Origin: a virus | Lineage: Duplodnaviria > Caudoviricetes | Virus record (IMG/VR): IMGVR_UViG_3300028025_001549 | Coordinates: 1 to 60,465 of that record | Length of the DNA: 60,465 bases | Strand: one strand, 5' to 3' | Part shown: positions 541-52,217 of the stretch, one piece after another | Layout: every line of letters begins with the position of its first letter | Position numbering within the stretch: position 1 is the stretch's first letter | Notes under the pieces: generated by a model | Database searches by the model: none | What the model was told of the DNA's origin: nothing | Seen by the model: the letters and a program-made list of their open reading frames with translations, nothing else | Program-made: the position numbers and the translations under genes

Positions 541-1194
541 ATGAAACTAATTAGAGAAGTCTACGACACTACCAACGTAATCGTTGAAGAGAAACTAGGC
601 AAACCAAAGCAATACTTTATTGAAGGTGTTTTCCTTCAATCAGAAATTACTAACCGCAATGGTCGTATGTACAAAGAAAGTACAATGGATCGTGAAGTTG
701 GTCGTTACATTAAAGAAGCAGTTGAGAACAATCGTGCATACGGTGAACTGGGTCACCCAGAAGGTCCAGGTATTAACCTTGATCGCGTATCACATATGAT
801 TACTTCTCTACGCAAAGAAGGTACGAACTATATTGGTCGTGCCAAGATTTTAGATACTCCAATGGGTCAAATCGCTAAAGGTCTTTTAGAAGGTGGCGCA
901 AACCTTGGTGTGTCTTCAAGAGCAATGGGTTCACTTAAGACTAATAACGAAGGTGTTCAAATTGTTCAGGACGATTTCATGCTGTCTACTGCAGCTGATA
1001 TCGTCGCCGATCCTTCAGCCCCCGATGCTTATGTGCGTGGGATTATGGAAGGTAAGGAATGGACATTTGTTGATGGAAAGTTTGTGGAGCAAAATATTGA
1101 AGAGGTAAAATCTTTCATTAAGAAAACTTCTTCTAGAAATCTAGAGGAAGCAAAGATTCAGGCTTTCCAACACTTTCTGAGTAAAATCAGATAA
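541..1194 (+). CDS. 21: prohead core protease gp21
   Basis: MKLIRE start, YFIEGVFLQ, NRNGRMY, GELGHP, GVSSRAMGS, DIVADPSAPDA motifs; synteny. Confidence 0.97.
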   Translation: MKLIREVYDTTNVIVEEKLGKPKQYFIEGVFLQSEITNRNGRMYKESTMDREVGRYIKEAVENNRAYGELGHPEGPGINLDRVSHMITSLRKEGTNYIGRAKILDTPMGQIAKGLLEGGANLGVSSRAMGSLKTNNEGVQIVQDDFMLSTAADIVADPSAPDAYVRGIMEGKEWTFVDGKFVEQNIEEVKSFIKKTSSRNLEEAKIQAFQHFLSKIR

Positions 1195-1236: not shown

Positions 1237-2271
1237 ATGTCAATCGAACAAAAAATCGCTGAAATTTTAGCTGAGTCTAAAAAGAAACAATTAGACGAAG
1301 CCAAGTTTGCAGGTGCAGAAGGTGGTAAGGATTCTGGTAAAGACGGTGCGCAAGCTGGCGACCAAGCCGTAATTCGCACAGGTAACCCAGTTCCAAATGG
1401 TGGTGAAACACCTAATCCCGATAATGCACGCAACAACGTGGACAATGAAAAAGAAGCTGAGGGTGGTACTTCTAAAAAGTCTAACCCAGCTAATAGCAGC
1501 GCAAATCCTGGCGACCAAGCTGTTGTCCGCAATGGTACTGCTGTTAAAGGTATGAAAGAAGATCTAGACGCTATGTTTGGCGCTGATGATCTGTCTGAAG
1601 AATTCAAGACTAAAGCTGCTACGATTTTCGAAGCTGCTGTTATGTCCCGTGTAACTGCTGAAGTTACTCGTTTAGAAGAAGAGTTCGAAGCAAAAGTAGC
1701 TACTACTGTTGCTGAAGAAATTGAGGGTATTGTTGAACAAGTTGATGGATACCTCGGCTATATTGCTGAGCAGTGGATGACACAGAATGAAATCGCCCTT
1801 GAGCGTGGTATTAAGTCTGATATACTAGAAAGTTTCGTTGATGGTCTGAAAGGACTATTCGAAGAACACTATATTGATGTTCCAGAAGAAAAGTATGACC
1901 TACTTGGTGAGATGGAAGAAACAATTAGTGAACTTAAATCTAAGATTGACGAGCAAGTTTCTGCTAATGTTGAGTTAACTAAAACAGTTAGCGAAGCAAA
2001 GCGTAATGAAATCGTTAAGACAGTTAGCGAAGGTTTAACTGATACAGAAGCTGAGAAGTTTGCTGGTCTAGTTGCTGAAGTAACTTTCGATGATGCTGAA
2101 ACTTATGAATCTAAAGTCAAGACTTTACGTGAATCTTATTTCACTACTAAAACTACATCAGGTGTAACATCTGTTGTAACTGATACTCCAGTTGAAGTAA
2201 TTACTGAAGCTGGCTCAAAGAAAGTAGATCCTAAAATGTCTGCTTACTTATCAGCTCTCAACAATAAATAA
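1237..2271 (+). CDS. 22: prohead core scaffold protein gp22
   Basis: Acidic coiled coil, LSEEFKTKAATIFEAAV, YLGYIAEQWM; lies between 21 and 23. Confidence 0.93.
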   Translation: MSIEQKIAEILAESKKKQLDEAKFAGAEGGKDSGKDGAQAGDQAVIRTGNPVPNGGETPNPDNARNNVDNEKEAEGGTSKKSNPANSSANPGDQAVVRNGTAVKGMKEDLDAMFGADDLSEEFKTKAATIFEAAVMSRVTAEVTRLEEEFEAKVATTVAEEIEGIVEQVDGYLGYIAEQWMTQNEIALERGIKSDILESFVDGLKGLFEEHYIDVPEEKYDLLGEMEETISELKSKIDEQVSANVELTKTVSEAKRNEIVKTVSEGLTDTEAEKFAGLVAEVTFDDAETYESKVKTLRESYFTTKTTSGVTSVVTDTPVEVITEAGSKKVDPKMSAYLSALNNK

Positions 2272-2295
2272 ATTTTAATTTAAAGGAAATCCAAA

Positions 2296-3585
2296 ATGGA
2301 TCGCAAACAATTAATGGAAAAATGGGCACCCGTGTTGAATCACGAAGGCTCTGCTCCAATCGAATCCGCTTACAAGCGTGAAGTAACTGCTGTTCTTCTA
2401 GAGAACCAAGAACGCGAAATGGGCAAGCAACAAGAAGCCCTATTCGAAACTGCTCCAACTAACTCTGTTGGTTCATACGGTGACACTGGCGGTATCGCTA
2501 AGTTTGACCCAGTATTGATCAGCTTGGTTCGTCGTGCAATGCCACAACTTATCGCTTATGATATCGCTGGTGTACAACCAATGACTCAGCCAACTGGTTT
2601 AATCTTCGCGATGAAATCACGTTACAGCACTCAAGGTGGTACTGAAGCGTTGTTCAACGAAGCTGATACAGACTTCTCTGGTACTGGTACTCACTCTGCT
2701 GCAGCTAACACTGACCCATTCACTTCTTACACTACTGGTACTGGCTTGGCTACTTCTGCAGCTGAGCGTCTAGGTCAAGGTGGTACTGGTGATGGTTCTT
2801 TCGGTCAAATGGCTTTCTCAATCGAAAAGACTTCTGTAACTGCTAAGACTCGTGCTTTGAAAGCTGAATACTCAGTTGAACTAGCACAAGACTTGAAGGC
2901 TGTTCATGGTCTTGACGCTGAAGGTGAACTAAGCAACATCTTGTCTACTGAGATTCTTGCTGAGATCAACCGTGAAGTTGTTCGTACTGTTTATACTACT
3001 GCAAAGCCAGGTGCCCAAGTTGGTACTGCTACTGCTGGTACTTTTGACCTTGACGTTGACTCTAATGGTCGTTGGTCTGTTGAAAAATTCAAAGGTCTAA
3101 TGTTCCAAATCGAACGTGAAGCCAATGCTATCGGTCAACAAACTCGTCGTGGTCGTGGTAACTTTATCATCACTTCAGCTGACGTTGCTTCTGCTCTAGC
3201 AATGGCTGGTGTTCTTGATTACTCTTCTGGTCTAACTGGTAAGAATAACTTGAACGTAGATGATACTTCTACTACTTTCGCTGGTGTTCTAAATGGCAAG
3301 TACAAAGTTTATGTTGACCCATACACTGCTAACGTACAAGCTCAACAGTTCTTCGTTGTTGGCTACAAAGGTCAATCAGCGTTTGATGCTGGTTTGTTCT
3401 ACTGCCCATACGTACCTCTCCAAATGGTTCGTGCTGTTGATCCTAACAGCTTCCAACCAAAGATTGGTTTCAAGACTCGTTATGGCATGGTTGCTAACCC
3501 ATTCGTTTCATTGGATGGTACTGGCGGTCTAACTGCTAACGAGAACTACTACTACCGTCGTGTTAAGGTTACTAACCTAATGTAA
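2296..3585 (+). CDS. 23: major capsid protein gp23
   Basis: KWAPVL, LLENQE, GVQPMTQPTGLIFAM, AGLFYCPYVPL, FQPKIGFKTRYG motifs. Confidence 0.99.
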   Translation: MDRKQLMEKWAPVLNHEGSAPIESAYKREVTAVLLENQEREMGKQQEALFETAPTNSVGSYGDTGGIAKFDPVLISLVRRAMPQLIAYDIAGVQPMTQPTGLIFAMKSRYSTQGGTEALFNEADTDFSGTGTHSAAANTDPFTSYTTGTGLATSAAERLGQGGTGDGSFGQMAFSIEKTSVTAKTRALKAEYSVELAQDLKAVHGLDAEGELSNILSTEILAEINREVVRTVYTTAKPGAQVGTATAGTFDLDVDSNGRWSVEKFKGLMFQIEREANAIGQQTRRGRGNFIITSADVASALAMAGVLDYSSGLTGKNNLNVDDTSTTFAGVLNGKYKVYVDPYTANVQAQQFFVVGYKGQSAFDAGLFYCPYVPLQMVRAVDPNSFQPKIGFKTRYGMVANPFVSLDGTGGLTANENYYYRRVKVTNLM

Positions 3586-40810: not shown

Positions 40811-41826
40811 TGGATTACAGACAACCACAAAATAATAGAGAAGCGTTCATCCGCTGGTACGCATGGTCATTAAAGTATGATGACTGTGACCCAGCTGTTT
40901 GGGCAACGAACTACCTCAACAAACGCTACGAGCATAATGATGAACAACGTCTTTGGCTTGCGTGGCTTTACGGTAACACTTATCAATTACCAACTGCGTG
41001 GGTATTGATGAATGAATTTCCTGATTATGAATTAGCAACAGTTGATAGAATTACGCAATGGAATACTACAAACTACAAACGACTGCGTTACCAAACTGAT
41101 ACAAAGTGGAACAAGGGGCATCTACCTGCCATGTTTGCTTCTTATCAACAGTTCATTGGTAACAGAACACAACGAGAAAGAATGGAAGGTTTTTATGGAG
41201 ATAATGAGGAAGCAAACTTTGATAACTTGTGGGAAAGCGTTAAGTCTGGGCTGCATAAGTTTGGTCGCTATTCCACTTGGTTTTATCTTCAGCATCTTAA
41301 GCATACCGCTGGTATTCGCATCAGCCCTACTAGTCTCATGCTGGATGATTATGATGGCTCTCGCTCTCATCGTAATGGATTACTTTGCGCCCTCGGCAGA
41401 CACGACGATATGGATAGAAAACTCAATGCAGGCGAGTATGCAACTCTTGAGCACGAAGCCAGATCTATTATCACCGAAACCAAAGATAGATTCCCAGATT
41501 TGGAAGCGCAAATAGATTTCTTTACAATGGAAACCTGCTTATGTTCATTCAAGAAAATCTTTAGAGCACACCATGGTCGTTACCTTGGATATTACCTAGA
41601 TCGTCAGGCTGAAGAGATTATCAAAGCTGAGGGTGATGGTTGGTATGGTATTGATTGGGATGTCCTTTGGCAAGCAAGAGATGAAACTATTGACTTACGC
41701 TTGGATAACAAAAGAGGAATTGATAAAGAAAAGTTTCCTGCATTTATAAATTCAGGTAGAATAGAAAACTTGGAATGGATGTTTGATGATGAAGAACCTA
41801 TGTTGATTGGATTGGAGAATTTTTAA
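40810..41826 (+). CDS. amino acid:DNA transferase (alpha-glutamyl/putrescinyl-thymine pyrophosphorylase-like, HhH fold)
   Basis: DCDP, WLAWLYG, KFGRYSTWFYLQHL, METCLCSFKK, YLGYY. Confidence 0.78.
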   Translation: MDYRQPQNNREAFIRWYAWSLKYDDCDPAVWATNYLNKRYEHNDEQRLWLAWLYGNTYQLPTAWVLMNEFPDYELATVDRITQWNTTNYKRLRYQTDTKWNKGHLPAMFASYQQFIGNRTQRERMEGFYGDNEEANFDNLWESVKSGLHKFGRYSTWFYLQHLKHTAGIRISPTSLMLDDYDGSRSHRNGLLCALGRHDDMDRKLNAGEYATLEHEARSIITETKDRFPDLEAQIDFFTMETCLCSFKKIFRAHHGRYLGYYLDRQAEEIIKAEGDGWYGIDWDVLWQARDETIDLRLDNKRGIDKEKFPAFINSGRIENLEWMFDDEEPMLIGLENF

Positions 41827-42248
41827 TGGCTATTACTAAAGGACAATTTGGTGGATTGACTGGTGCGATTTATGATGATATGAATAGTAGTGTAACTATT
41901 TCATCACCAATGATGGGTAGCGCAAGCACAATTACTACCAGTTCTAATATCACACCAATGCGCACTCCGACTGAAGTTATTCTAGATCGTTATCAGTTAA
42001 ATGAAATCACTGTTCAGCATCGAGTTCAAGAGTTTGAACTTATGAAACTGCGTGAAAGTAATGTAGATTATGCTACTGAGATTAAACAAAATCTAGCCAA
42101 GTGGGCTTCAGAAGAAGTTACTAACAAGATGACCTTTACTAAAAAGACAGAAATAAACACAGATACCCATTCTTTCCGTGGACGTGTATGGGTCTTTAGT
42201 AAAGAAGAACTAATTAAAATGATTGAGGAAATTAGAAATGGCATTTAA
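41826..42248 (+). CDS. hypothetical protein within the modification cluster
   Basis: 140 aa ORF coupled to both neighbours. Confidence 0.6.
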   Translation: MAITKGQFGGLTGAIYDDMNSSVTISSPMMGSASTITTSSNITPMRTPTEVILDRYQLNEITVQHRVQEFELMKLRESNVDYATEIKQNLAKWASEEVTNKMTFTKKTEINTDTHSFRGRVWVFSKEELIKMIEEIRNGI

Positions 42249-42849
42249 TGAAAACGTGGGTGTAGTTGACACCATCAAAGTAGAAAGGGTAACTAATGCT
42301 ATGAAGACCAGAAAGATTATCGCAGTTGGTGGCTCACCTGGAACTGGCAAGACTACTTTGTTTCGTAAGTTTATGGAAGATAAAACTTGGCTAGAAGTTT
42401 CCCCTGCCAAGTTGGTAAATGCCAGTTACAATACCGAGAGAGATTTATACATCCTTGGTAAGTATGATGATGGCGAAGTATTCGCTGGAACTGACCGACT
42501 ATCCATGGCAGTTCAACCACCTCTTCAAGAATGGGTCGCCTCCCATAATTGTAATATCCTTTTCGAGGGAGATCGGGTTTTTAACCAATCATTCCTAGAG
42601 TTCTGTATGGGTCTCCCAAATACACAATTAGAAGTGGTATTTCTAAAGGCTCCAAAAGATATCCTAGAACAACGCTATAAAGATCGTGGATCCGACCAAT
42701 CTGAGCAATTCCTACGTGGAAGAGAAACTAAATATAGTAACCTGATGTCAAACTTTGATTTGATGCCATATATTACTGAGTTTGCAAACACTAACTTAGA
42801 GGAGCAGACGAAGGTACTTGCTTTTTTGGAGAAGCAATTTATTAGTTAA
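42238..42849 (+). CDS. P-loop nucleotide kinase of the type linked to base-modification clusters
   Basis: GGSPGTGKTT, LGKY..GTDRLSMAVQP, LFEGDR, RY..RGS.Q. Confidence 0.78.
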   Translation: MAFNENVGVVDTIKVERVTNAMKTRKIIAVGGSPGTGKTTLFRKFMEDKTWLEVSPAKLVNASYNTERDLYILGKYDDGEVFAGTDRLSMAVQPPLQEWVASHNCNILFEGDRVFNQSFLEFCMGLPNTQLEVVFLKAPKDILEQRYKDRGSDQSEQFLRGRETKYSNLMSNFDLMPYITEFANTNLEEQTKVLAFLEKQFIS

Positions 42850-42869: not shown

Positions 42870-43565
42870 ATGAATTACCTAGAGAAAGCTGATTTTGACT
42901 GGATGGACTTACTCAATTTCTATGAGCGTCCATTTAGAGCAAAACTCATTCCAGCAAAAGTATGGGTAGATCTAGATTCATATAAACACGACTCAATCGG
43001 GTTAACAAACTATGCTAGAAAATGGCGCACTAAGATAGAGTGGCGCAATGAAAAGTCCAAAGCAAAGTGGGCAACAAATTATGTAGCAATCGGTGGCGAG
43101 TATTCTCCTGATGATCGCCAAATAACCCTACAGATTTATACAAAGAAATTTAATAGTTTCCCTTTCACTGATAAATCTTGGTCATCATTTAAGATGAGAT
43201 TTATTCAGACTCTTATGCATGAGATAATTCACTTCATGCAATATGACAGAAGGGGTGATGAATGGAGTAACTACGTTGTTCCATATAAGAAAGTTGGCAT
43301 AGCCAAGAAAGATGAACAGAGAGCATACCTCTCTGAGTTTGATGAGATACAAGCATATGCGCATTGTGTGTATCTAGACTTTAAAATGCGCAGACCAAAT
43401 GTAGATATCGACACCCTGTTGAATCGTTATAAGACAAAACGAGATTCATCTACACTCCACTATTTCTTAAAGACGTTCGACTACGATTTAAGAAACAACA
43501 TAGCCACTCGTAAGATTATAGACCAGATCGGTAAATGGGATCGCAAGTATAATCGCATGACCTAA
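42870..43565 (+). CDS. hypothetical protein with HExxH zincin-like motif
   Basis: TLMHEIIHFMQY and downstream YLSEFDEIQAYA. Confidence 0.65.
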   Translation: MNYLEKADFDWMDLLNFYERPFRAKLIPAKVWVDLDSYKHDSIGLTNYARKWRTKIEWRNEKSKAKWATNYVAIGGEYSPDDRQITLQIYTKKFNSFPFTDKSWSSFKMRFIQTLMHEIIHFMQYDRRGDEWSNYVVPYKKVGIAKKDEQRAYLSEFDEIQAYAHCVYLDFKMRRPNVDIDTLLNRYKTKRDSSTLHYFLKTFDYDLRNNIATRKIIDQIGKWDRKYNRMT

Positions 43566-43592: not shown

Positions 43593-44507
43593 ATGGCTAC
43601 AGCAAATACAATTCTTTCTGATATAAATGAAATCCAAACTGGATACTTTCTCAATGGAGAAAAGTGGTATGACAGCGATGCTAAAGCACAGTTTGAGCAA
43701 AGAAGTAAACAAGCAACTCCAGAAGAAGTAAAGGATGCTATTGCCAAAGCAAAGGTAATGGCAAGTGAGTTTGTTATATGGGCTAAGAATAATGGTTACA
43801 GATTGCCAATTAAAAATATTTGGTGGACTGCTCGACCAAATTCAATGTCGTCTGCTGTTGGTTATCCTGTTGATCAAAAGAAAAACCCAACTGATATTCT
43901 AGTTAAGTTTAGCTCTGGACCATCTGATGGGTTTCTAGGATTATCTGCTAAAGCCACCCAAGGTAAAGGAGAGATTGGATTTAAGAATCCTGGACTTGGA
44001 ACTATTGACAGAAATCTAGGATTGCATCTAACTGAAGAATATAACAATCAAGTAAAGCAAGCAGTTAAGAAATACTCATTACCTGAGACTGCCACTACCC
44101 GTAAAACATACATACGAGCAAATCCAGGTATCAAAAAACAAACAGAAGAAATTGGTGTATCTATCTTGGCAGCAATGCGCGATGAATTAATGGTTCGTCT
44201 ACAAAAAATGAAACAACCAGAGTTAATGAAGTACCTTTTAACTGACTGGATGGACGCTGATATAATGAAACCTCCTTACATCAAAGTTACTGGTCAGGGG
44301 AATAAAGAGCCATACCGAGCCATTGTTATGGATCCTACCGCCAATGATAAACTAAGTGCTTTGGGTAAATATGCAATTACTTTAGAAAATGTGGGTAATG
44401 AGTCTATCGGTGTTAAAGCAGGTGAAAAGAAGATTATGAAGATCCGATTTAAGTTCGAATCCGAAAAGATCGCTTCCTCTGTTAAGTTATCTGGGGAACC
44501 TTGGTAA
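43593..44507 (+). CDS. PD-(D/E)xK-like nuclease-fold protein, normal-composition paralog of 47150
   Basis: N-terminal NE, PTDILV, GLSAK pattern; aligns by eye with 47150-48196. Confidence 0.6.
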   Translation: MATANTILSDINEIQTGYFLNGEKWYDSDAKAQFEQRSKQATPEEVKDAIAKAKVMASEFVIWAKNNGYRLPIKNIWWTARPNSMSSAVGYPVDQKKNPTDILVKFSSGPSDGFLGLSAKATQGKGEIGFKNPGLGTIDRNLGLHLTEEYNNQVKQAVKKYSLPETATTRKTYIRANPGIKKQTEEIGVSILAAMRDELMVRLQKMKQPELMKYLLTDWMDADIMKPPYIKVTGQGNKEPYRAIVMDPTANDKLSALGKYAITLENVGNESIGVKAGEKKIMKIRFKFESEKIASSVKLSGEPW

Positions 44508-44519
44508 CATATTGCGTAT

Positions 44520-44527
44520 TATAAATA
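44520..44527 (+). promoter_or_regulatory. late promoter TATAAATA
   Basis: Exact consensus upstream of 44559. Confidence 0.75.
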
Positions 44528-44558
44528 ACCATATAACACTACTTAATTGATGGATTAA

Positions 44559-45428
44559 ATGAAAGATTATAGACAACTAATCAGAGAACTACCGAGTAAA
44601 ACGATAGTCCTAGCCTGTTCGAAGTTTAACCCTCCGACTATCGGACATGAACTTCTAATCAAGGCAGTCAAATCTGTAGCCGAGCAAAAGAATGCCAGCT
44701 ACGCCATTTATGCATCCGATTCTAGCGATGCGAAAAAGAATCCCTTAATTGTAGAAAAGAAATTGCAGTATTTGAATGCATTGTTTCCGAACACGCAGTT
44801 CAATACTTACTCTGACAACATGAGCGAAGTGGTTGCTAAATTAAAAGAAACCTATCGTAATGTTATCATTGTTACCAGCGCAGACAAAGTAGCTTCCATG
44901 AAGAAATCTCTAAAGGAAGCTACAGTCATATCAGCTATGGATAAAGATCCTGACAGCGAAGACGCTACTCGTAATTATGCAGTCAAAGGTTTATACGAAG
45001 ATTTTAAAAAGAATCTACCATCAGCAATACGTGATATTGATTCTCGTAGATTAATGAATGATATTAGAATTGGTTCAGGACTTGATCCAATCAAAGAAGA
45101 AATTAAATTAGTTAAAGACGAACTACGTGAACAATATTTTCGTGGCGAAATCTTTAATGTTGGTGAGCAAGTAGAAGCCGATGGCCAACAATATGAAATT
45201 GTTAAGCGTGGTTCTAATCACCTATTATTAAAAGAATCTACTGGTAAATTAGTCAGCAAGTGGATTCAGAATGTTAAATTAGTAGAGAAAAAAGTAGAAA
45301 AGAAAAAGCTGAAGTCTTTTAAATCTACTGTTAGAAATACTGAACAGCCAGCTGGTTTGGCTCCACAAGATTTTACTTCTAGAACATTTGATGCGTTTTC
45401 AAACACTACAGTTACACCTGGAATTTAA
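44559..45428 (+). CDS. cytidyltransferase-like (HIGH superfamily) protein, partly degenerate
   Basis: KFNPPTIGHELL, DAKKNPL, DPD; C-terminal LREQYFRGEIFNVGE domain. Confidence 0.75.
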   Translation: MKDYRQLIRELPSKTIVLACSKFNPPTIGHELLIKAVKSVAEQKNASYAIYASDSSDAKKNPLIVEKKLQYLNALFPNTQFNTYSDNMSEVVAKLKETYRNVIIVTSADKVASMKKSLKEATVISAMDKDPDSEDATRNYAVKGLYEDFKKNLPSAIRDIDSRRLMNDIRIGSGLDPIKEEIKLVKDELREQYFRGEIFNVGEQVEADGQQYEIVKRGSNHLLLKESTGKLVSKWIQNVKLVEKKVEKKKLKSFKSTVRNTEQPAGLAPQDFTSRTFDAFSNTTVTPGI

Positions 45429-45875
45429 ATGAACGAATTAACAACTGCAATTAAAGTTTTGCTGGCTAATGCTACTGTAATGTATTACAAAGTGCATCAG
45501 TTCCATTGGAATATAGAGGGTATTGAGTTCACTCAGTACCACGAGTTCTTTGGCGATTTATATGCTGAAGTTTATGGATCAATCGATCCAACTGCAGAAT
45601 GGCTACGCAAGTTAGATGAATATGCTCCAGTAAGTATGGATGAGTTATTCAAATATAAAACATTAAAAGAAGAATCTCAACGTGTTGAGAAACTTGAAGA
45701 TATATTCGTGAGTCTTATCGCTGCAAACCAAGAAGTCTTGGACAGCCTAAATAAAGTGTTCACTATTGCTAATGCCAATAAACAGCAAGGTGTTTGTAAC
45801 TTTATAGCGGATAGAATAGATACTCATCAGAAGCATGCTTGGTTCTTAAAAGCATCTGCGAAGAAAATAGGATAA
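45429..45875 (+). CDS. dps: Dps-family ferritin-like protein
   Basis: HQFHWNIEG, FTQYHEFFGDLY, D.TAE, HQKHAWFL. Confidence 0.9.
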   Translation: MNELTTAIKVLLANATVMYYKVHQFHWNIEGIEFTQYHEFFGDLYAEVYGSIDPTAEWLRKLDEYAPVSMDELFKYKTLKEESQRVEKLEDIFVSLIAANQEVLDSLNKVFTIANANKQQGVCNFIADRIDTHQKHAWFLKASAKKIG

Positions 45876-45938
45876 CCCTCAGAAGTTGAGGGGATTGCAA
45901 ATATCGCTTTACTTTTATTGCAAAATAGGGTATAATAG
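45876..45938 (+). promoter_or_regulatory. early promoter module 5
   Basis: CCCTCA-GAAGT-TGAGGG 45876-45892; TTTACT 45908-45913, N17, TATAAT 45931-45936. Confidence 0.8.
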
Positions 45939-45956
45939 GTTAATAGGATATAAAAA

Positions 45957-47153
45957 ATGAAATCATTTAGCACATACTTAAAAGAGTCTGCCGAAGAAGG
46001 TACTAAACTAAAGCACATCACCCATCCTGAAGATCGTCCACTGATGCATGGCCATGATGGCTTTGAACATGCTCATGGTGCTTTGTCTCATGCGCATGAG
46101 CATATGAAGTCTGGTAAAAATAATAGCAACCTTACTACAAAGTATGATGGTTCACCTGCTGTAGTTTTCGGTTCTCATCCAAAGACTGGTAAGTTCTTTG
46201 TTGCTTCTAAATCTGCTTTCAATAAAGATCCAAAGATTAATCATACTGATGCTGATATCGATAAGAACCACGGACATGCTCCAGGTCTTGCTGCCAAATT
46301 AAAAGCTGCGTTACACCACTTACCCAAAGTTACTCCAAAAGGTAAAGTCTATCAGGGCGACATTATGCACTCTGAAGGTGATGTTAAGCACGATAAGAAA
46401 ACTGGCAAAGCATCTTTTACTCCAAACACTATTACCTATACTGCTTCTGGCGATGAAGCCAAGAAAGCAGCAAAAGCAAAAGTAGGTGTTGCTGTTCATA
46501 CTCAATATCACGGTAAAGATATCCACTCGATGTCTGCTCATCACGAAGTTGATCACCACGAATTCAAACAGCATCCTGATGTTCACCACCACGATGCCAG
46601 CTACGATACTAGCAAAGCGTCGCACTCTCAAGCCAATCAAGATGAGTTCCATAAGCATATGGCTGCAGCAAAAGCAGTTCATGATACTCATGGCGACAAA
46701 ATGTATAACGCTGTTCACTCTGCCCATAGTGGTGAGCATGGTCATTTAGCCACTTACATTAACTCAACTGTTCGCAATAACACTACTCCAAACGTAAAAG
46801 ATTTCAAAGCCCATCTTGAAACACACCACGCTAAACAAGTTGCTGGTGTTAAGACTGAAAAGTCTCAAGACGCTAAACGTGCTAAAGGCAAAGAAGAAGT
46901 TGATCACGTAGAAAAGAATAAGGCTCATTACGAAAACGTATTGACTGCACATAACCATCTTGCTGCTGCAAAGAACTCTTTGGTTAAGTCGCTAGAAAGT
47001 GGTCATAGCAATTATGAACACCATATCGAAGGTAAAGAATCTAAGCCAGAAGGTTTCGTTGTTAACCATGAACACAATGGTAAAACTGAACCTTCTAAAC
47101 TTGTGAATCGTGCTGAGTTCGCAAGATCTAACTTGTTGAAGGTGCGTAAATGA
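45957..47153 (+). CDS. His-rich ligase-like nucleotidyltransferase-fold protein with capsid-targeting N-terminus
   Basis: MKSFSTYLKE; TKYDGSP, YQGDIM, PEGFVV, KLV; about 49 His in 398 aa (hand count). Confidence 0.7.
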   Translation: MKSFSTYLKESAEEGTKLKHITHPEDRPLMHGHDGFEHAHGALSHAHEHMKSGKNNSNLTTKYDGSPAVVFGSHPKTGKFFVASKSAFNKDPKINHTDADIDKNHGHAPGLAAKLKAALHHLPKVTPKGKVYQGDIMHSEGDVKHDKKTGKASFTPNTITYTASGDEAKKAAKAKVGVAVHTQYHGKDIHSMSAHHEVDHHEFKQHPDVHHHDASYDTSKASHSQANQDEFHKHMAAAKAVHDTHGDKMYNAVHSAHSGEHGHLATYINSTVRNNTTPNVKDFKAHLETHHAKQVAGVKTEKSQDAKRAKGKEEVDHVEKNKAHYENVLTAHNHLAAAKNSLVKSLESGHSNYEHHIEGKESKPEGFVVNHEHNGKTEPSKLVNRAEFARSNLLKVRK

Positions 47154-48196
47154 AATCCTTTAAATCTTTCTTAAACGAAGAAATCTATTTCGATGATGAT
47201 CTGACAGAAGCAGTCGATGACGCTTCCAAAGAAGGTGGTGTTTCAAATAACACTAAAGGTGTTCTACACGAGATTCTAACTGGCAAGCACCTTAATGGTG
47301 GCAAGCATATGGAGAAACATGTTAATGAACACAATGAAACTCCTGAGCAAACTCATAAACGATTAAAGGATTCAATTCACCCAGCTGACTATAAGCGCAT
47401 TGATGCCAATGCTAAGTCTGCTGCTAATCACATTAAGAAACATATTGAGTCTACTCATCCAGGTCACGCTATTCATGCTGTTACTCATACTTCCAAACCT
47501 GGAGATACAGAAAAGGTAACTGGTCACAAAGCAACTCAGAAAGAAGATTCTTCTGATGTTTATGTTTCTACTAAGCATCCTAAGACTGGTAAAGTAACTC
47601 ACCATGGTGTAAGTTTAAAAGTTAGCGATAACTCTAGCAAGAATATTCCTTCATCAAGTCTTGGTATGGAATCTGGTGGCTCAAAAGCCAGAGAACATTA
47701 CAAAGCACATCAAGAAGGAATTCTAAAAGCACATCCACAATTAAAAGGTAAGAATAAAGAACAGCGTAAAGAAGCTGCAAAAGCAGATCCTAAGATGCAC
47801 GCTGATGTTAAAGAACGCAACAAAGTGCTATTGCACAAAGTTGCACACAGTCATGCTGCTGAATTACAGCATCACTTAGATACTGGCAATCATGAGCACG
47901 TAGTTAAGCATATTCGTGAGGTTCTACATGCTCATAAAACACCTGCTCAAGAAAGGGGTCATACCTTTATCAAGCATACCACTTACAAAACTGCCAAAGG
48001 TGTTCAACACCACGCTAGTAGCCCAAGTGAAGACCATGAACATATTTTAAAAGATCATAAGAATCTTTCAGTTAAATCTAGTGGTGGTTCTGTTCACTTC
48101 TATCATAATGGTAAGAAGTTTGCGTCTCAAGCCCATAAGTTTGATTCACAAAGCGATCCACTAAGTTCATTAAAATCCGCAGGTAAGGCAGTCTAA
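47150..48196 (+). CDS. His-rich PD-(D/E)xK-like protein with capsid-targeting N-terminus
   Basis: MKSFKSFLNE; SSDVYV..GVSLK; about 41 His in 348 aa (hand count); paralog of 43593. Confidence 0.65.
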   Translation: MKSFKSFLNEEIYFDDDLTEAVDDASKEGGVSNNTKGVLHEILTGKHLNGGKHMEKHVNEHNETPEQTHKRLKDSIHPADYKRIDANAKSAANHIKKHIESTHPGHAIHAVTHTSKPGDTEKVTGHKATQKEDSSDVYVSTKHPKTGKVTHHGVSLKVSDNSSKNIPSSSLGMESGGSKAREHYKAHQEGILKAHPQLKGKNKEQRKEAAKADPKMHADVKERNKVLLHKVAHSHAAELQHHLDTGNHEHVVKHIREVLHAHKTPAQERGHTFIKHTTYKTAKGVQHHASSPSEDHEHILKDHKNLSVKSSGGSVHFYHNGKKFASQAHKFDSQSDPLSSLKSAGKAV

Positions 48197-48197
48197 T

Positions 48198-48434
48198 ATG
48201 CTATCATTCAAAGAATACCTAGATGAAGCCATCGTTCATAATGGTATTCACGCAGAGATAAAAAAAGATAGAATTGATTTCCATTATGGTGGTAAATTAG
48301 TTCACAGCCGTAAGGGTGATTATTCAAACCCAACTAAAACCGACCATAACACTGCTAAGAGTATTGCAACTAGAGTTCATTTATCTGTTAAGAATAAACC
48401 AGGTGGGTATACTTTAAACTATGGGAAGATATAA
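48198..48434 (+). CDS. small putative internal head protein
   Basis: MLSFKEYLDE N-terminus, His/Lys-rich. Confidence 0.65.
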   Translation: MLSFKEYLDEAIVHNGIHAEIKKDRIDFHYGGKLVHSRKGDYSNPTKTDHNTAKSIATRVHLSVKNKPGGYTLNYGKI

Positions 48435-48456
48435 TGCTATCATTCAAAGAATACCT
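48198..48456 (+). repeat. 23 bp direct repeat ATGCTATCATTCAAAGAATACCT at two adjacent gene starts
   Basis: Identical at 48198-48220 and 48434-48456. Confidence 0.9.
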
Positions 48457-48721
48457 TGTAGAATATGCAATTGATGCCAAGGGGCATAAGAGTTCCGAAG
48501 GTGGATTGACACAAAAAGGTGTTGATGCATATAATCGTAAGACTGGCGGAAACTTAAAGATGGCTGTTACTACACCACCATCTAAGTTAAAGAAAGGTAG
48601 TAAAGCTGCCAATCGTAGAAAATCTTTTTGTGCACGTATGAGTGGCGTTGATGGTCCAATGAAGAAACCAAATGGTGAACCAACTCGTAAAGCACTGGCA
48701 TTAAGAAAATGGAATTGCTAA
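48434..48721 (+). CDS. small basic putative internal head protein
   Basis: MLSFKEYLVE; GGLTQKG, RRKSFCARM, ALRKWNC. Confidence 0.7.
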   Translation: MLSFKEYLVEYAIDAKGHKSSEGGLTQKGVDAYNRKTGGNLKMAVTTPPSKLKKGSKAANRRKSFCARMSGVDGPMKKPNGEPTRKALALRKWNC

Positions 48722-48722
48722 T

Positions 48723-51422
48723 ATGTTAACATATAACGAATTAAAAGAAAAGTGTAACTGCTGGAAAGGTTACAAACGTGTTCCAGGCACTAAACCATGC
48801 GCAGAGGATAGTTGTATGAAAGAAGAATTAGAAAAACACCACGTGTTAGCATTTGGTCGTATGAACCCAATCACTTCTGGCCACGAAGCAGTAGTTAATA
48901 AACTACATTCAGTTGCTAAGGAACATGGCGCAAGTCACAGTCTTGTAGTTTCTCATAGCCAAGATGCTAAGAAAAACCCATTGACTGGTGAACAGAAAGT
49001 TGCTCACGCTAAGAATGCATTCCCTGGGACTAATGTAAGTTCTGCAAGCAAAGATAAGCCAACTATCCTACACCATGCCGCAGCTGCTCATGCTGCTGGC
49101 GCAACTCACTTACACGTAGTTGCTGGATCTGATCGCCATGAAGAGATGCATAATCTTCTTCATAAGTATAATGGTAAAGACTCTGGTCATGGCCATTATA
49201 ACTTTAAAAAGATTACTGTTCATTCTTCTGGTGAACGTGATCCAGACGCTGAGGGTACTACTGGTATCTCTGCAAGTAAAATGCGTGAGCATGCTGCTTC
49301 TGGTAACAAAGCAGAGTTTCATAAAGGTGCTCCATCAAATATGAAGCCAGAACATAAGGACGCCATGTATAACGATGTGCGTAAAGGTATGAATATAAAA
49401 GAAGAAACTGTTCAAGAAGAACTACGTCCAGATATGGGCGCAGGTGCTTATGTCAATGATTTTATTAAATCTACTAATCCAAGATTTAATAACAAATCTA
49501 AAGAAGAACGTCGCAAGATGGCTATTGGTGCATTCATGGCTGCTAAATCTAGACTAAAAGAAGGTCGTGGATTAGCGGACAAATATTGGAGCATGGCTCA
49601 GGATCGTAAAGAAACTGCCGATGAGAATAAAGATAATCATGAAATATATCATACCCATATGGCTGATCATCATGACCATATGAGTCGTTACCATGAAGAA
49701 CTTGGTCAGCATACTCATGCTCAATCTCATGCAGATAAGGCAGAAATTCATCACGAGAAATCAATGCAAAGACCAAACCGTAAATCCACTGTTAAAGAAG
49801 GTACTCTTCAAGGTAACATCGGTGGTGGTGATGCCATGAACACTACAACTTCTGCTCCATCTGCATCAACCGCAAAGGATACTACTATGGGTAAAAAGAT
49901 TAAAGGATTTAAATTCTTTAATGGCGAGAATGATAAACAAATGAATATGAATCAGCCAGTTAAAGAAGCAACCGAATTAGATTCTCCTTCTAAACATGCT
50001 GAACATATTGTCGCAGCTGATACCGATGATGAAGCAAAGAAACGAATCGCAAAAGTTCCAACTAAGCACCTTCAATCAGCACATCATTGGAATCTTGGTT
50101 ATTCTGGTGGAGAACACAAATATACTACGCATGTTAAATCTGAGTTGCAAAAGCGTGGTGCAATGTTATCTGCTTCTGAATCTTCAAAACGATTTGACGA
50201 AGAAGTAAAGAAAGAAGACCCTCCATTTGATGGACCATACAAATCTACTTTCAAGAAACCAAATAATCCAAATCGTACTGGAATGGATGCTGCTCGTTCA
50301 TTGGCTCAGCGTTCAATGGATCAACTCAATAAAAAGAAACCAGTTAATGAAGAAACTCTTGATGAGCGTAACAAAGCAAATGCTCTTATGCGTAAAACTA
50401 TGGACGCATCCCGTGGCGCCAAGTTTAAGTTAAAGAATCCAGTACCTGACGCTGATCCAAAACACAAAACTGCCAGAGACCACAACGTAGCAATTGGACG
50501 TGCTTTACGTAACGAAGCCACTACTGGTAATCCAGGATTTGGATATCATGGTCAACATAAGACTGAAAATGATGCCGATGAAGCATATAAAAAGATTCAC
50601 GCTCATGTTAAAAGTTTGACTGATAGTGATGACAAAACTGTCAAGCACTATCTTGATTCTGCTCATGGTCGCCATCTAGTTGGCCATGAAAATGATCATG
50701 ATCATATTAAGAAAGACTTCAAGAAATTCTCGAAGTACTACAAACCAGAAATGCACGAAGCCACTGCGCAGAAAGGTGTTAACGTAGATAAAGTTAATAC
50801 TGCTGGACAAGAGCCTCATGACGAGAAATTTGAAACAGCACCTAAGACAGTATCCAAAATTAAAAAAGTAAAAGAGGAAAATATGAAATCATATAAAGAG
50901 TTTTTACAAGGATTAGATGAAAAACTAATTGGTAAACAACACAAGATCGACAAGAATAAGAATGGTGAGGTTGATGGGCATGACTTTGAACTTCTTCGTA
51001 AAGAAGAAGTTGAATTAGATGAGTCTACTTACGCATCTGCTGATCAGGCAAAAAATGTTGTTGCGGCATTAAAGCAAAAACATAATGATGGTAATTATTC
51101 TGTTAAACAAACTAAGAATGGACACAAAGTAGTTCATGCTTATGATAGCGACGCTAAAGTTAAATCTGCTTGTAAATCAGTGAATGAAGAAGCTGATCAC
51201 TTACTTGAATATGAGTCTGATGAAAGCGGTGTATATCGTCACACTAAGAAAGCTACTTACGGAACTTCTTACCAAGACCCAGAAGGTGCTGATGAGACTG
51301 CAGCTGATATGAAGAAAAAAGAAAAGAAAGCAGCTGGTCGTAAAACTGGTCAAAGTACTGGTTCTTACAAGCCACGTGCAACTATGTCCAAGCTGAAATC
51401 AGCTGGCGCAACTTATAAATAA
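48723..51422 (+). CDS. His-rich modular protein: cytidyltransferase/NMNAT-like domain plus many short modules (probable processed internal head protein)
   Basis: FGRMNPITSGHE, VAGSDR, ISASKMR; repeated (L/V/I/M)xE junctions; EF-hand-like DKNKNGEVDGHDF. Confidence 0.72.
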   Translation: MLTYNELKEKCNCWKGYKRVPGTKPCAEDSCMKEELEKHHVLAFGRMNPITSGHEAVVNKLHSVAKEHGASHSLVVSHSQDAKKNPLTGEQKVAHAKNAFPGTNVSSASKDKPTILHHAAAAHAAGATHLHVVAGSDRHEEMHNLLHKYNGKDSGHGHYNFKKITVHSSGERDPDAEGTTGISASKMREHAASGNKAEFHKGAPSNMKPEHKDAMYNDVRKGMNIKEETVQEELRPDMGAGAYVNDFIKSTNPRFNNKSKEERRKMAIGAFMAAKSRLKEGRGLADKYWSMAQDRKETADENKDNHEIYHTHMADHHDHMSRYHEELGQHTHAQSHADKAEIHHEKSMQRPNRKSTVKEGTLQGNIGGGDAMNTTTSAPSASTAKDTTMGKKIKGFKFFNGENDKQMNMNQPVKEATELDSPSKHAEHIVAADTDDEAKKRIAKVPTKHLQSAHHWNLGYSGGEHKYTTHVKSELQKRGAMLSASESSKRFDEEVKKEDPPFDGPYKSTFKKPNNPNRTGMDAARSLAQRSMDQLNKKKPVNEETLDERNKANALMRKTMDASRGAKFKLKNPVPDADPKHKTARDHNVAIGRALRNEATTGNPGFGYHGQHKTENDADEAYKKIHAHVKSLTDSDDKTVKHYLDSAHGRHLVGHENDHDHIKKDFKKFSKYYKPEMHEATAQKGVNVDKVNTAGQEPHDEKFETAPKTVSKIKKVKEENMKSYKEFLQGLDEKLIGKQHKIDKNKNGEVDGHDFELLRKEEVELDESTYASADQAKNVVAALKQKHNDGNYSVKQTKNGHKVVHAYDSDAKVKSACKSVNEEADHLLEYESDESGVYRHTKKATYGTSYQDPEGADETAADMKKKEKKAAGRKTGQSTGSYKPRATMSKLKSAGATYK

Positions 51423-51449
51423 AACAAGTCCAATTCAAGGAGAATTAAA

Positions 51450-52217
51450 ATGGCACTATGGTCAAATACAGATGGCGATGCAGGTAAACCAAAATACCTA
51501 TCAGACGCTGACAAAGCAATTACATTCGGTATGGATGCTACCGAAATCACAGCAGGTGGCGATAACGTAACTTCAGTTGGTGTTGCCAATGCAGGTGCTC
51601 GTTACTTAGAAGTACCAGCAGTCACCTTCTCTGGTGGCGCAGGATCTTCTGCTGCAGCTACTGCTACTATCGCTGGTGGCGTAGTTACAGCTGTTACTGT
51701 TACTAATACTGGTACTGGTTATACTTCAGTACCAACTGTTGCTATCGCAATCCCAAGACGCACTATTCCTACTACTGGTATTACTATTGCTACTGACACT
51801 ATCGCTTATACAGCGCATGGTCTAAGTGCTGGTGATGCTGTTAAGTACTTCCATGGCGGTGGCACTGCTGCAACTGGTTTAACAAATAACACAACATATT
51901 ATGTTATTGCTTCTGGTCTAACAGCCGATGCATTTAAAGTTTCTGCTACTGATGGTGGTACAACTGTTGACATTAGTGGTACTGGTAACAATGCTCAATA
52001 CTTTGAACTTGCTACTGCTGTAGCAACTATCCAAGCAACTGCTGTAGCTGATCAAGGTTATGGTGCTGGTAGTGGTATTGCTGCTACTCACGCTGGCTGG
52101 GTTCGTCGCACTGTTGGTACTGGCGGTCGTGCTGGTCGTGTGTTTACTGAGACATTAGTTGCCATGGGTTCTATGTCTTCTGATGCTTCTGACGATACAG
52201 TTCTGCCTGACGCTTAA
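51450..52217 (+). CDS. Gly/Thr/Ala-rich virion structural protein (fibre or decoration-like)
   Basis: MALW start, GxGYTSVPTV repeats, HGL..GDAV, HAGWV, ETLVAM. Confidence 0.7.
   Translation: MALWSNTDGDAGKPKYLSDADKAITFGMDATEITAGGDNVTSVGVANAGARYLEVPAVTFSGGAGSSAAATATIAGGVVTAVTVTNTGTGYTSVPTVAIAIPRRTIPTTGITIATDTIAYTAHGLSAGDAVKYFHGGGTAATGLTNNTTYYVIASGLTADAFKVSATDGGTTVDISGTGNNAQYFELATAVATIQATAVADQGYGAGSGIAATHAGWVRRTVGTGGRAGRVFTETLVAMGSMSSDASDDTVLPDA

What the first reader, a model, noticed from the sequence alone, without database searches (positions are those of the whole stretch)
43593..48196. Paralog pair in which one copy is systematically rewritten in histidine
Seen: 43593-44507 and 47150-48196 align by eye end to end. 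Examples: NEIQTGYFLNGEK/HEILTGKHLNGGK; IWWTARP/VTHTSKP; QKKNPTDILV/QKEDSSDVYV; FLGLSAK/HHGVSLK; PYIKVT/TFIKHT; KKIMKIRFKFES/KKFASQAHKFDS. The second copy gained an MKSFKSFLNE leader, is about 12% His, lacks Trp and Cys, and has His where the first has aromatic or hydrophobic residues. Inference: a capsid-packaged version adapted through composition, e.g. to unfold easily for ejection, switch folding with pH or metal, neutralise DNA charge, or carry metal. I know of no description of this.
Basis: partly seen in the sequence, partly recalled or inferred. Interest (0 to 1): 0.85.

Follow-up and report, generated by a model that had tools for sequence, protein, structure and literature searches.

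The report
Histidine-rich packaged enzyme cassette in phage
A marine T4-like phage carries two distant copies of a restriction-enzyme-like protein, and the copy with a capsid-targeting leader sits in a block of leader-bearing enzymes that are all about 7-12% histidine, a makeup that our paper searches did not find described.

Summary
A (43593-44507, 304 aa) and B (47150-48196, 348 aa) are true but old relatives: BLASTP is weak (E 0.027), while profile-profile comparison gives E 6.9e-13 and the predicted folds are colinear. B has 11.8% His and no Trp or Cys.

Both belong to a phage superfamily of at least 500 clusters. It has an invariant E...D...SxK set and a weak fold match to HinP1I/MspI.

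B's leader fits the T4 capsid-targeting rules, and the window encodes the matching gp21-type protease.

- The leader-bearing neighbours DUF6267 (12.3% His) and a 78-aa protein (7.7%), and the 899-aa transferase (6.9%), whose own leader is degenerate, are His-rich too.
- The His-rich state is a deep clade trait: 5 changes on the tree against 18 for the leader.

Packaging therefore does not require histidine.

Why histidine was selected is untested. I favour a titratable charge or folding switch. This is a new variant of a known kind.

The parts
43593..44507 (+). A: His-poor, leaderless member (304 aa) of the E...D...SxK nuclease-like superfamily. Candidate catalytic residues: E13 (43629-43631), D101 (43893-43895), S118 (43944-43946), K120 (43950-43952).
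47150..48196 (+). B: His-rich (11.8%), Trp- and Cys-free member (348 aa) of the same superfamily. Candidate catalytic residues: E41 (47270-47272), D136 (47555-47557), S155 (47612-47614), K157 (47618-47620).
47150..47209 (+). Propeptide of B. The 10-residue capsid-targeting-type leader is at 47150-47179 (F4, F7, L8, E10). A second L-x-E site is at residues 18-20 (47201-47209). The whole stretch is disordered in the model.
45957..47153 (+). DUF6267 protein (398 aa) with a canonical leader, 12.3% His, no Trp or Cys. The cyanophage homologue is leaderless with 1.7% His.
48198..48434 (+). 78-aa protein with a canonical leader, 7.7% His.
48434..48721 (+). DUF6321 protein (95 aa) with a canonical leader but only 1.1% His. 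It is a leader-bearing member of the block that is not His-rich.
48723..51422 (+). 899-aa protein with an N-terminal cytidylyltransferase-like domain, 6.9% His. Its own N-terminus is a degenerate leader (score -3.6). Short homologues in related loci carry a canonical one.
44559..45428 (+). His-poor (0.7%) cytidylyltransferase-like protein (289 aa). It is the counterpart of the His-rich N-domain of 48723-51422, so it forms a second pair of the same kind.
45429..45875 (+). Dps/ferritin-like protein (148 aa, 3.4% His, no leader) lying between the His-poor pair and the His-rich block.
541..1194 (+). gp21-type prohead core serine protease (Peptidase_S77), the enzyme expected to cut the leaders after L/I-x-E.
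1237..3585 (+). T4-type capsid assembly scaffold protein (1237-2271) and gp23 major capsid protein (2296-3585).

Best explanation
The window is about 38% of an uncultured marine T4-like myovirus.

What A and B are. They are anciently diverged members (about 19% identity) of a phage superfamily with one conserved fold and an invariant Glu...Asp...Ser-x-Lys set. They are most likely Mg-dependent nucleases of the PD-(D/E)xK kind, in the structural neighbourhood of the monomeric restriction enzymes HinP1I, MspI and HaeIII.

How B reaches the host (inferred). B starts with a T4-type capsid-targeting sequence. It is probably built into the prohead core, trimmed by the gp21-type protease after L-N-E (residue 10) and probably L-T-E (residue 20), kept in the DNA-filled head and ejected into the host with the DNA. 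A is the version made in the cell.

The cassette. B belongs to a cassette (DUF6267 enzyme, B, small proteins, nucleotidyltransferase) that in this phage lineage has been recoded as a whole. His is about 7-12%. Trp and Cys are almost absent. Ile, Leu, Phe, Met and Tyr are fewer. The number of Lys+Arg and Asp+Glu is unchanged.

Most likely reason for the histidine (inferred, not shown). The histidines act as a titratable charge reserve. Calculated net charge is about +10 to +15 at pH 8, like A, but +32 to +36 at pH 6, or wherever nearby DNA phosphates raise the imidazole pKa. These large enzymes could then behave as polycations beside packed DNA, as T4's basic internal proteins are assumed to, with a weakened hydrophobic core that eases unfolding for passage through the tail. 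They would return to ordinary folded enzymes in the cytoplasm.

Shown here: homology, composition, clade structure, leader pattern, presence of the protease. Inferred: packaging, nuclease activity, and the reason for His.
For: Homology:
- hhalign E 6.9e-13 and, run globally, 3.1e-12.
- Models are colinear, with pLDDT 90.2 and 87.8.

Superfamily:
- 500 representatives at E<=0.001, of which 395 at E<=1e-10.
- Among 135 aligned rows, E41 is present in 134, and D136, S155 and K157 in all 135.

Nuclease link:
- Foldseek of model B against the PDB gives HinP1I (2fkc_A, E 6.3e-4, probability 1.00) and MspI (E 7.7e-3) as the top three rows.
- In the ESM Atlas search for A among named clusters, 23 of 30 hits are RE_HaeIII clusters (scores 0.97-0.98). 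R-HINP1I and Endonuc-MspI clusters score 0.94-0.95.

Packaging:
- Peptidase_S77 (E 1e-36), T4_CASP (1.6e-70) and Gp23 (1.3e-142) are in the window.
- Passages of PMC9026906 say that gp21 cuts after L/I-x-E, that the first 10 residues of IPIII suffice for targeting, that residues 4 and 7 matter for targeting and residues 8 and 10 for processing. B has F4, F7, L8 and E10.
- Residues 1-19 are disordered in the model.
- Only four ORFs of the window carry this leader, and they are contiguous, 45957-48721.

Recoding of the cassette:
- His is 12.3, 11.8, 7.7 and 6.9% in the block, against a mostly 0-4% background.
- In ORFs of the 80 IMG/VR loci with a B homologue plus the window, DUF6267 neighbours average 9.1-9.6% His.
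- His preferentially takes aromatic positions in three families: odds ratios 7.4 (p 3e-5), 3.0 (p 0.013) and 4.5 (p 0.03).
- About ten His of B that are kept in at least 83% of 24 B-family rows stand where the A family has conserved hydrophobic residues.

Charge: K+R and D+E are alike in A and B. Calculated net charge at pH 8 / pH 6 is +9 / +11 for A and +15 / +36 for mature B.

Ejection of large cargo: a passage of PMC9026906 reports that GFP packaged in T4 appears to refold after ejection.

Size pattern: small leader-bearing proteins (DUF6321, 95-139 aa) are not His-rich, at 1.4%. This fits a need that applies only to large cargo.
Against: - No virion proteomics or expression data exist for this phage, so packaging is inferred from the leader alone.
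- The same cassette with leaders has 0-2.9% His in 15 other loci, and 12 of 120 A-family proteins have a leader and at most 0.9% His. His is therefore not needed for packaging or ejection in T4-like phages in general.
- Six leaderless B-clade members still have 3.7-8.8% core His.
- Nuclease membership is weak. TM-scores to HinP1I are only 0.30/0.40. Model A finds no solved structure at E<=0.001. Profiles find no solved relative by sequence. No Pfam family matches more than 2 of 117 members, and no restriction-enzyme family is among the 25 shown. PF09556 and PF11463 find nothing in the window.
- The middle catalytic position is Ser, which is not canonical.
- The model of B is confidently folded, which gives no sign of easy unfolding.
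- The charge figures are textbook-pKa calculations, not measurements.
- BLOSUM-based alignment slightly favours His-Tyr pairs, which inflates the aromatic-to-His odds ratios somewhat.
Confidence: 0.5

Rival explanations
1. The histidines bind metal. The His-rich cassette proteins carry or are cross-linked by Zn, Ni, Co, Cu or Fe inside the head. This could serve as cofactor supply, as a condensing agent, or as a metal-gated fold.
For: B and the DUF6267 protein are about 12% His. A Dps/ferritin-like gene lies directly before the His-rich block, and a Dps homologue is found in 27 of the 81 sources surveyed (80 loci plus the window). Conserved His stand at former core positions, where several could meet in space. 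Known His-rich proteins such as Hpn bind Ni (title and abstract of 10.1101/081331 in the listing).
Against: There are no His runs. There is no excess of His pairs at spacings of 1-7 residues in B or in the DUF6267 protein compared with 2000 shuffles; the lowest fraction of shuffles reaching the observed count is 0.05. The His are dispersed over the whole chain. The Dps protein has no leader.
Confidence: 0.17
2. The His enrichment has no function of its own. It is a lineage-specific drift or mutational bias, or a hitch-hiking feature of a cassette that moves between phages as one piece.
For: His-richness follows the clade and not the leader: 5 state changes against 18. His-poor leader-bearing cassettes work in other phages. 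The region has an unusual base skew, with AT skew 0.14-0.16 and GC skew -0.06.
Against: The enrichment is confined to four proteins of the block (45957-48434 and 48723-51422), among genes with mostly 0-4% His. It recurs in three unrelated protein families. Many His columns are kept in 83-100% of 24 B-family rows that are only about 50-80% identical overall. A base bias would also raise Asn, Thr and Gln, but these fall or stay level. The skew is more likely the result of CAY and AAR codons than their cause.
Confidence: 0.1
3. The leader is not a capsid-targeting signal here, and B acts only in the cytoplasm. The shared N-terminus would then be a relic of cassette recombination or a translation-start module.
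For: There is no proteomic evidence. Leader state flips often on the tree (18 changes). Some flips may be start-codon calls. The leader score was trained on the B family itself.
Against: The leader matches all four positions that experiments define in T4. It ends in the gp21 cleavage motif. It is followed by a second L-x-E before the folded domain begins. It occurs on at least eight unrelated protein families clustered beside each other in related phages. The protease and scaffold are encoded in the window.
Confidence: 0.1

Closest known systems
T4 internal head proteins IPI, IPII, IPIII and Alt, with their capsid targeting sequence
   Same: A short N-terminal propeptide of about 10 residues. 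Positions 4 and 7 matter for targeting and positions 8 and 10 for cleavage after L/I-x-E by the gp21 prohead protease (passages of PMC9026906; PMC3012670). The proteins are basic, diverse and poorly conserved, sit with the DNA and are ejected. The window has gp21-, gp22- and gp23-type genes.
   Different: The cargo here consists of 35-100 kDa enzyme-like proteins of three families, recoded to 7-12% His without Trp or Cys. Five paper searches and one term search within a paper found no report of His-rich internal proteins. Packaging is not shown for this phage.
Monomeric type II restriction endonucleases HinP1I and MspI (PD-(D/E)xK), and the RE_HaeIII family
   Same: These are the best structural matches of model B and the nearest language-model clusters of A. 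A Glu on the first helix plus Asp...x-Lys is kept in 134-135 of 135 relatives. Size is similar, about 250-320 aa.
   Different: There is no sequence-profile membership. Ser sits where these enzymes have Gln, Asn or an acid (recalled, not checked: the HinP1I paper was not held). There are extra helices and a C-terminal sheet, and TM-scores are low. The genes are phage-borne, and no partner methyltransferase was looked for.
Host-DNA-degrading nucleases of phages with modified DNA (T4 endonucleases II and IV; recalled)
   Same: A possible working analogy. Just upstream of A the window encodes an amino acid:DNA transferase and a P-loop nucleotide kinase. That suggests hypermodified phage DNA, which a phage nuclease could spare while cutting host DNA.
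   Different: The fold family is different (recalled). No activity or specificity is known here. The link between the Pfam families and DNA modification is recalled, not tested.
Histidine-rich metal-binding proteins such as Hpn of Helicobacter pylori
   Same: Very high His content (listing: title and abstract only).
   Different: Those are described as small proteins with His runs (recalled). Here the His are dispersed through conserved enzyme folds, without any spacing pattern.

Membership tests
T4-type capsid-targeted internal head proteins | N-terminal leader of about 10 residues with targeting residues at positions 4 and 7 and processing residues at 8 (L/I) and 10 (E) | tested here: met
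   B has F4, F7, L8 and E10. The rule comes from passages of PMC9026906. Leader score is 32.7 bits, against a 95th percentile of 10 for other ORFs.
T4-type capsid-targeted internal head proteins | The phage encodes a gp21-type prohead protease and a gp22-type scaffold core | tested here: met
   Peptidase_S77 E 1e-36, T4_CASP E 1.6e-70, Gp23 E 1.3e-142.
T4-type capsid-targeted internal head proteins | The protein is present in the mature virion with the propeptide removed, and is ejected into the host | not testable with these tools
   No proteome and no cultured phage. The only cultured-phage homologue is in Synechococcus phage S-B68.
T4-type capsid-targeted internal head proteins | Basic protein | tested here: met
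   Calculated pI is 9.3-9.6 for mature B. Net charge is about +10 to +15 at pH 8.
PD-(D/E)xK nucleases of the HinP1I/MspI kind | Shared fold with solved members | tested here: inconclusive
   Model B: HinP1I E 6.3e-4 with probability 1.00 but TM 0.30/0.40; MspI E 7.7e-3. Model A: no match at E<=0.001. The VIA-align libraries were not available.
PD-(D/E)xK nucleases of the HinP1I/MspI kind | Conserved acidic residue(s) and an x-Lys catalytic motif | tested here: met
   E41 in 134 of 135 aligned rows; D136, S155 and K157 in 135 of 135. The residue two before Lys is Ser, which is not the canonical D/E. Superposition on the HinP1I catalytic residues was not possible without coordinates.
Pfam RE_HaeIII (PF09556), R-HINP1I (PF11463), Endonuc-MspI (PF09208) | Match to the family HMM above its gathering score | tested here: not met
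   No match to PF09556 or PF11463 in the window at E<=10. No Pfam hit for A or B. Among 117 superfamily members no family matched more than 2, and none of the 25 families shown is a restriction-enzyme family. PF09208 was not searched on its own. The only link is by language-model features.
Type II restriction-modification systems | Cognate DNA methyltransferase encoded beside the nuclease | not tested
   Neighbours scanned with Pfam are a transferase, Dps, DUF6267, ADDT and a P-loop kinase. No systematic methyltransferase search was run.

The most novel reading that the evidence does not exclude
A lineage of marine T4-like phages has recoded a whole set of injected enzymes (nuclease-like, DUF6267, nucleotidyltransferase) into a histidine-based chemistry. 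Imidazoles replace much of the aromatic and aliphatic core. The proteins would then switch with pH or DNA proximity between a highly cationic, loosened, inactive state inside the DNA-filled head and a folded active state in the host. This would be a general design solution for co-packaging large enzymes, including a nuclease, with the genome and threading them through the tail.
Probability: 0.25. Interest if true: 0.8.

Novelty: new variant of a known kind. Interest (0 to 1): 0.6.

Why it matters
Capsid-targeted internal proteins are known from T4. How large enzymes tolerate life beside DNA packed at about 500 mg/ml, and then pass through the tail, is poorly understood.

Here nature offers a matched comparison. 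The same three enzyme families occur with leaders in a His-poor style and in a His-rich style. In this one window a His-poor leaderless copy stands 2.6 kb from a His-rich leader-bearing copy.

That makes the question directly testable with pairs of natural proteins, by measuring stability, charge, DNA binding, metal content, packaging and delivery. It could also guide the design of protein cargo for T4-based delivery vehicles.

The work also defines a large, unannotated phage superfamily (at least 500 clusters at 50% identity) with an invariant E...D...SxK set and restriction-enzyme-like features, lying next to a probable DNA-hypermodification gene set.

Tried and rejected
Searches that found nothing:
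- Pairwise BLASTP as proof of homology is too weak.
- Pfam, PHROGs and PADLOC gave nothing for A or B.
- PDB searches by sequence with three profiles found no relevant match.
- The DUF6267 protein and the 899-aa protein have no solved relatives by sequence.
- The phage collection has no DNA match and no match for B. A matches only S-B68.
- HTVC008M, Melnitz and S-MbCM7 have no A/B homologue.
- Pfam scans of ten fused or long superfamily members, looking for informative partner domains, found only DUF5661, in 2 of 10.
- BFVD fold search for A found family members without names (5 at E<=0.001). PD-(D/E)XK and RecB-like rows appear only at E 0.16-2.7.

Ideas tested and set aside:
- A protease-avoidance idea (fewer L/I-x-E sites in the His-rich copies) shows no clear pattern: A has 3 sites, mature B 2, both DUF6267 forms 0, the His-poor transferase 9 and the His-rich one 7.
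- Linear metal-site spacing of His is not enriched in B or in the DUF6267 protein.
- My first leader regex called the His-poor transferase (44559) and the 899-aa protein leader-bearing. The position-weight score does not (2.7 and -3.6 bits). I dropped that claim.
- Single-linkage clustering merged all cassette proteins into one cluster of 293. I replaced it by domain assignment and stricter clustering.

Caveats on the counts:
- ORFs in loci were called crudely: longest ATG frame, + strand, at least 60 aa.
- IMG/VR loci were not de-replicated, so ORF counts are not independent.
- The 15-bit leader threshold was chosen by eye from a bimodal score distribution.
- The tree is FastTree, built on an alignment with all His masked. 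135 of the 152 sequences available (150 listed representatives plus the window's A and B) were used; the 17 shorter than 280 aa were dropped.
- I did not examine the habitat or origin of any sample.
- Supplementary files of papers were not consulted.

Full report
WHAT THE WINDOW IS. All long ORFs run on the + strand. The window encodes a gp21-type prohead protease (541-1194, Peptidase_S77, E 1e-36), a T4-type scaffold protein (1237-2271, E 1.6e-70), a gp23 major capsid protein (2296-3585, E 1.3e-142), a UvsW-type helicase and a ribonucleotide reductase. The capsid protein is about 65% identical to those of Methylophilales phage Melnitz, Pelagibacter phage HTVC008M and cyanomyoviruses. The record is a linear virus contig that equals the window, with CheckV completeness 38%. 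No DNA match exists in the phage collection. It is an uncultured marine-type T4-like myovirus.

THE OBSERVATION. A (43593-44507, 304 aa) and B (47150-48196, 348 aa) are as described.
- B has 41 His (11.8%), no Trp and no Cys. A has 0.3% His and 2.0% Trp.
- BLASTP alone would not prove kinship (E 0.027 and 0.70).
- Each protein has a large family in metagenomes: 242 hits for B and 526 for A at E<=0.001, with the best 120 of each listed.
- Profile against profile gives 97.8% probability, E 6.9e-13 over 194 columns, and E 3.1e-12 over 280 columns when run globally.
- The two AlphaFold models (pLDDT 90.2 and 87.8) show the same succession of helices and strands to the C-terminus.
- In the joint alignment the two window proteins share 56 of 298 aligned positions.

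WHAT THE FAMILY IS.
- A profile of both families finds 500 cluster representatives at E<=0.001 in 1.84 billion proteins, 395 of them at E<=1e-10.
- Among 135 aligned rows (133 representatives of at least 280 aa plus the window's A and B), Glu41 is present in 134, and Asp136, Ser155 and Lys157 (B numbering) in all 135.
- Model B's three best PDB matches are HinP1I (two entries, E 6.3e-4 and 4.6e-3) and MspI (E 7.7e-3), though with low TM-scores. Model A finds nothing significant.
- Independently, language-model features place A beside RE_HaeIII clusters (23 of 30 named hits, scores 0.97-0.98), and beside R-HINP1I and MspI clusters. One such viral cluster also appears for B.
- No sequence profile confirms membership.
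- I therefore read the proteins as working like PD-(D/E)xK restriction-type nucleases, not as members of those families.
- Directly upstream lie an amino acid:DNA transferase (40810-41826, PF18724, E 4.4e-23) and a P-loop nucleotide kinase (42238-42849). From recalled knowledge these mark thymidine hypermodification. A nuclease that spares modified phage DNA and cuts host DNA would make sense, but this is inference.

THE LEADER.
- Passages of PMC9026906 state that gp21 cuts after L/I-x-E, that internal proteins have 10-19-residue propeptides, and that the first 10 residues of IPIII suffice for capsid targeting. Residues 4 and 7 matter for targeting, and residues 8 and 10 for processing.
- B has F4, F7, L8 and E10, and a second L-T-E at residues 18-20. 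Residues 1-19 are disordered in the model.
- A position-weight score trained on 60 distinct B-family leaders finds exactly four such N-termini in the window. They are contiguous: 45957 (DUF6267 protein), 47150 (B), 48198 (78 aa) and 48434 (DUF6321 protein).
- Packaging is thus well motivated but not shown.

THE HISTIDINE PATTERN IS WIDER THAN THE PAIR.
- His is 12.3% in the DUF6267 protein, 11.8% in B, 7.7% in the 78-aa protein and 6.9% in the 899-aa transferase. All have almost no Trp or Cys, against a background of mostly 0-4%.
- The transferase has its own His-poor counterpart next to A (44559-45428, 0.7% His).
- The DUF6267 family occurs in 461 phage records, mostly cyanophages. In S-MbCM7 it is leaderless with 1.7% His and is followed by a cytidylyltransferase.
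- In all three families His preferentially occupies positions that are aromatic in the plain homologue. The odds ratios are 7.4 (p 3e-5), 3.0 (p 0.013) and 4.5 (p 0.03). A fourth comparison gives 2.1 and is not significant.
- Overall, His rises by 6-12 points at the cost of Ile, Leu, Phe, Met, Tyr and Trp. Lys+Arg and Asp+Glu stay alike.
- In ORFs of the 80 IMG/VR loci with a B homologue plus the window, DUF6267 neighbours average 9.1-9.6% His and short transferases 6.3%. DUF6321 proteins average 1.4%.

DOES HISTIDINE TRACK THE LEADER? Only partly.

For:
- 64% of leader-bearing ORFs in these loci have at least 5% His, against 11% of the others. With B and DUF6267 left out the figures are 30% against 6% (counts not independent).
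- In the B clade, members with no N-terminal extension have less core His: 5.3% (n=6) against 9.1% (n=56), p 0.003.

Against:
- 12 of the 120 listed A-family proteins have a clear leader and at most 0.9% His.
- In 15 loci of two phage groups (L086-L089, L154-L164) the A-type protein, the DUF6267 protein, the transferase and further small proteins all bear leaders yet have 0-2.9% His.
- On a tree built with every His masked, a branch with 100% support splits a B-type side from an A-type side. On the B-type side 58 of 64 rows have at least 5% core His. On the A-type side 69 of 71 rows are His-poor.
- His state needs 5 changes on that tree and the leader 18. Among 12 independent pairs that differ in leader, His state differs in 1-2.

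So His-richness is an old, conserved property of one lineage of the cassette. It is not a consequence of having the leader. A and B are not the product of a recent duplication and rewrite. The window phage holds a His-poor leaderless set (A, transferase) beside a His-rich leader-bearing set.

WHY HISTIDINE? Nothing here tests this.
- Calculated net charge at pH 8 is similar for A (+9) and mature B (+15). At pH 6 it is +11 against +36. That fits a titratable polycation next to DNA.
- The loss of core hydrophobics, and the fact that small leader-bearing proteins are not recoded, fit easier unfolding of large cargo. GFP packaged in T4 appears to refold after ejection (passage of PMC9026906).
- A nuclease packed with DNA also needs to be kept idle.
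- Against a dedicated metal-binding role, His pairs at spacings of 1-7 are not enriched in B or in the DUF6267 protein. Spatial clustering could not be checked.
- Against drift, the enrichment is local, recurs in three families, and many His columns are conserved.

NOVELTY.
- Searches of the paper library returned nothing that describes His-rich internal or ejection proteins of phages. The term sets were: 'capsid targeting sequence / internal protein / histidine-rich'; 'histidine-rich / myophage / marine / virion'; 'histidine-rich / bacteriophage / ejection proteins' (0 papers); and 'His-rich / phage / internal head protein'.
- 'DUF6267' occurs in no paper.
- The pelagimyophage survey PMC7029224 holds none of my six terms.
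- For these papers I saw only listings or term searches. Supplements were closed.

VERDICT. The capsid-targeting reading is well founded but unproven. The idea that composition was adapted for packaging is only partly supported and is contradicted as a general rule. The finding is best described as a His-rich variant of the T4-type internal-protein cassette, with a restriction-enzyme-like nuclease as one member.

Noticed in passing
window 40810-42849: An amino acid:DNA transferase (PF18724 ADDT, E 4.4e-23) and a P-loop nucleotide kinase 3 (PF18751, E 5.9e-7) lie just upstream of A. From recalled knowledge these mark thymidine hypermodification of phage DNA. That would bear on how a phage nuclease spares its own genome.
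   Followed up: partly
window 42870-43565: A 231-aa protein with an HExxH-like motif and no Pfam or PHROG hit. A homologue is present in 30 of the 81 sources surveyed (80 loci with a B homologue plus the window).
   Followed up: no
window 45429-45875: A Dps/ferritin-like protein (PF00210, E 7.9e-23; PHROG 'DNA binding protein') sits exactly between the His-poor pair and the His-rich block. A homologue is present in 27 of the 81 sources surveyed. It has no leader.
   Followed up: partly
window 44559-45428 and 48723-51422: A second pair of the same kind. Two cytidylyltransferase-like domains are 65 of 188 aligned residues identical, one with 0.7% His and the other, in an 899-aa protein, with 6.9% His.
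   Followed up: partly
window 45957-47153: The DUF6267 protein contains a K-Y-D-G stretch that recalls the nucleotidyl-transfer motif of ligases and capping enzymes (recalled lead). It has no solved relative by sequence. In cyanophage S-MbCM7 and in PHROG 455 the family is joined or adjacent to a cytidylyltransferase.
   Followed up: no
window 44001-52000: AT skew rises to 0.14-0.16, and GC skew turns negative (-0.06) at 46001-48000. The rest of the window has AT skew about 0-0.11 and positive GC skew. This probably reflects the many CAY (His) and AAR (Lys) codons.
   Followed up: no
L001 4987-6738 (Synechococcus phage S-B68, QBP06017.1): This is the only homologue in 50,697 phage records. It is a 583-aa protein whose C-terminal 270 residues belong to the superfamily (E 4.6e-26). 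It has the B-type H-E and S-L-K motifs but only 1.0% His, a long low-complexity N-terminal region and a leader-like stretch about 18 residues from the annotated start.
   Followed up: partly
window 48198-48721: Two adjacent small genes (78 and 95 aa) begin with the same eight residues, and their stop and start codons overlap or abut the neighbouring genes. This suggests leader-bearing modules added in tandem.
   Followed up: no
P0381 and P0384 (superfamily representatives): Two long-branch members on the A-type side of the tree have 7.8-8.7% core His. This is a possible second, independent origin of His-richness.
   Followed up: no
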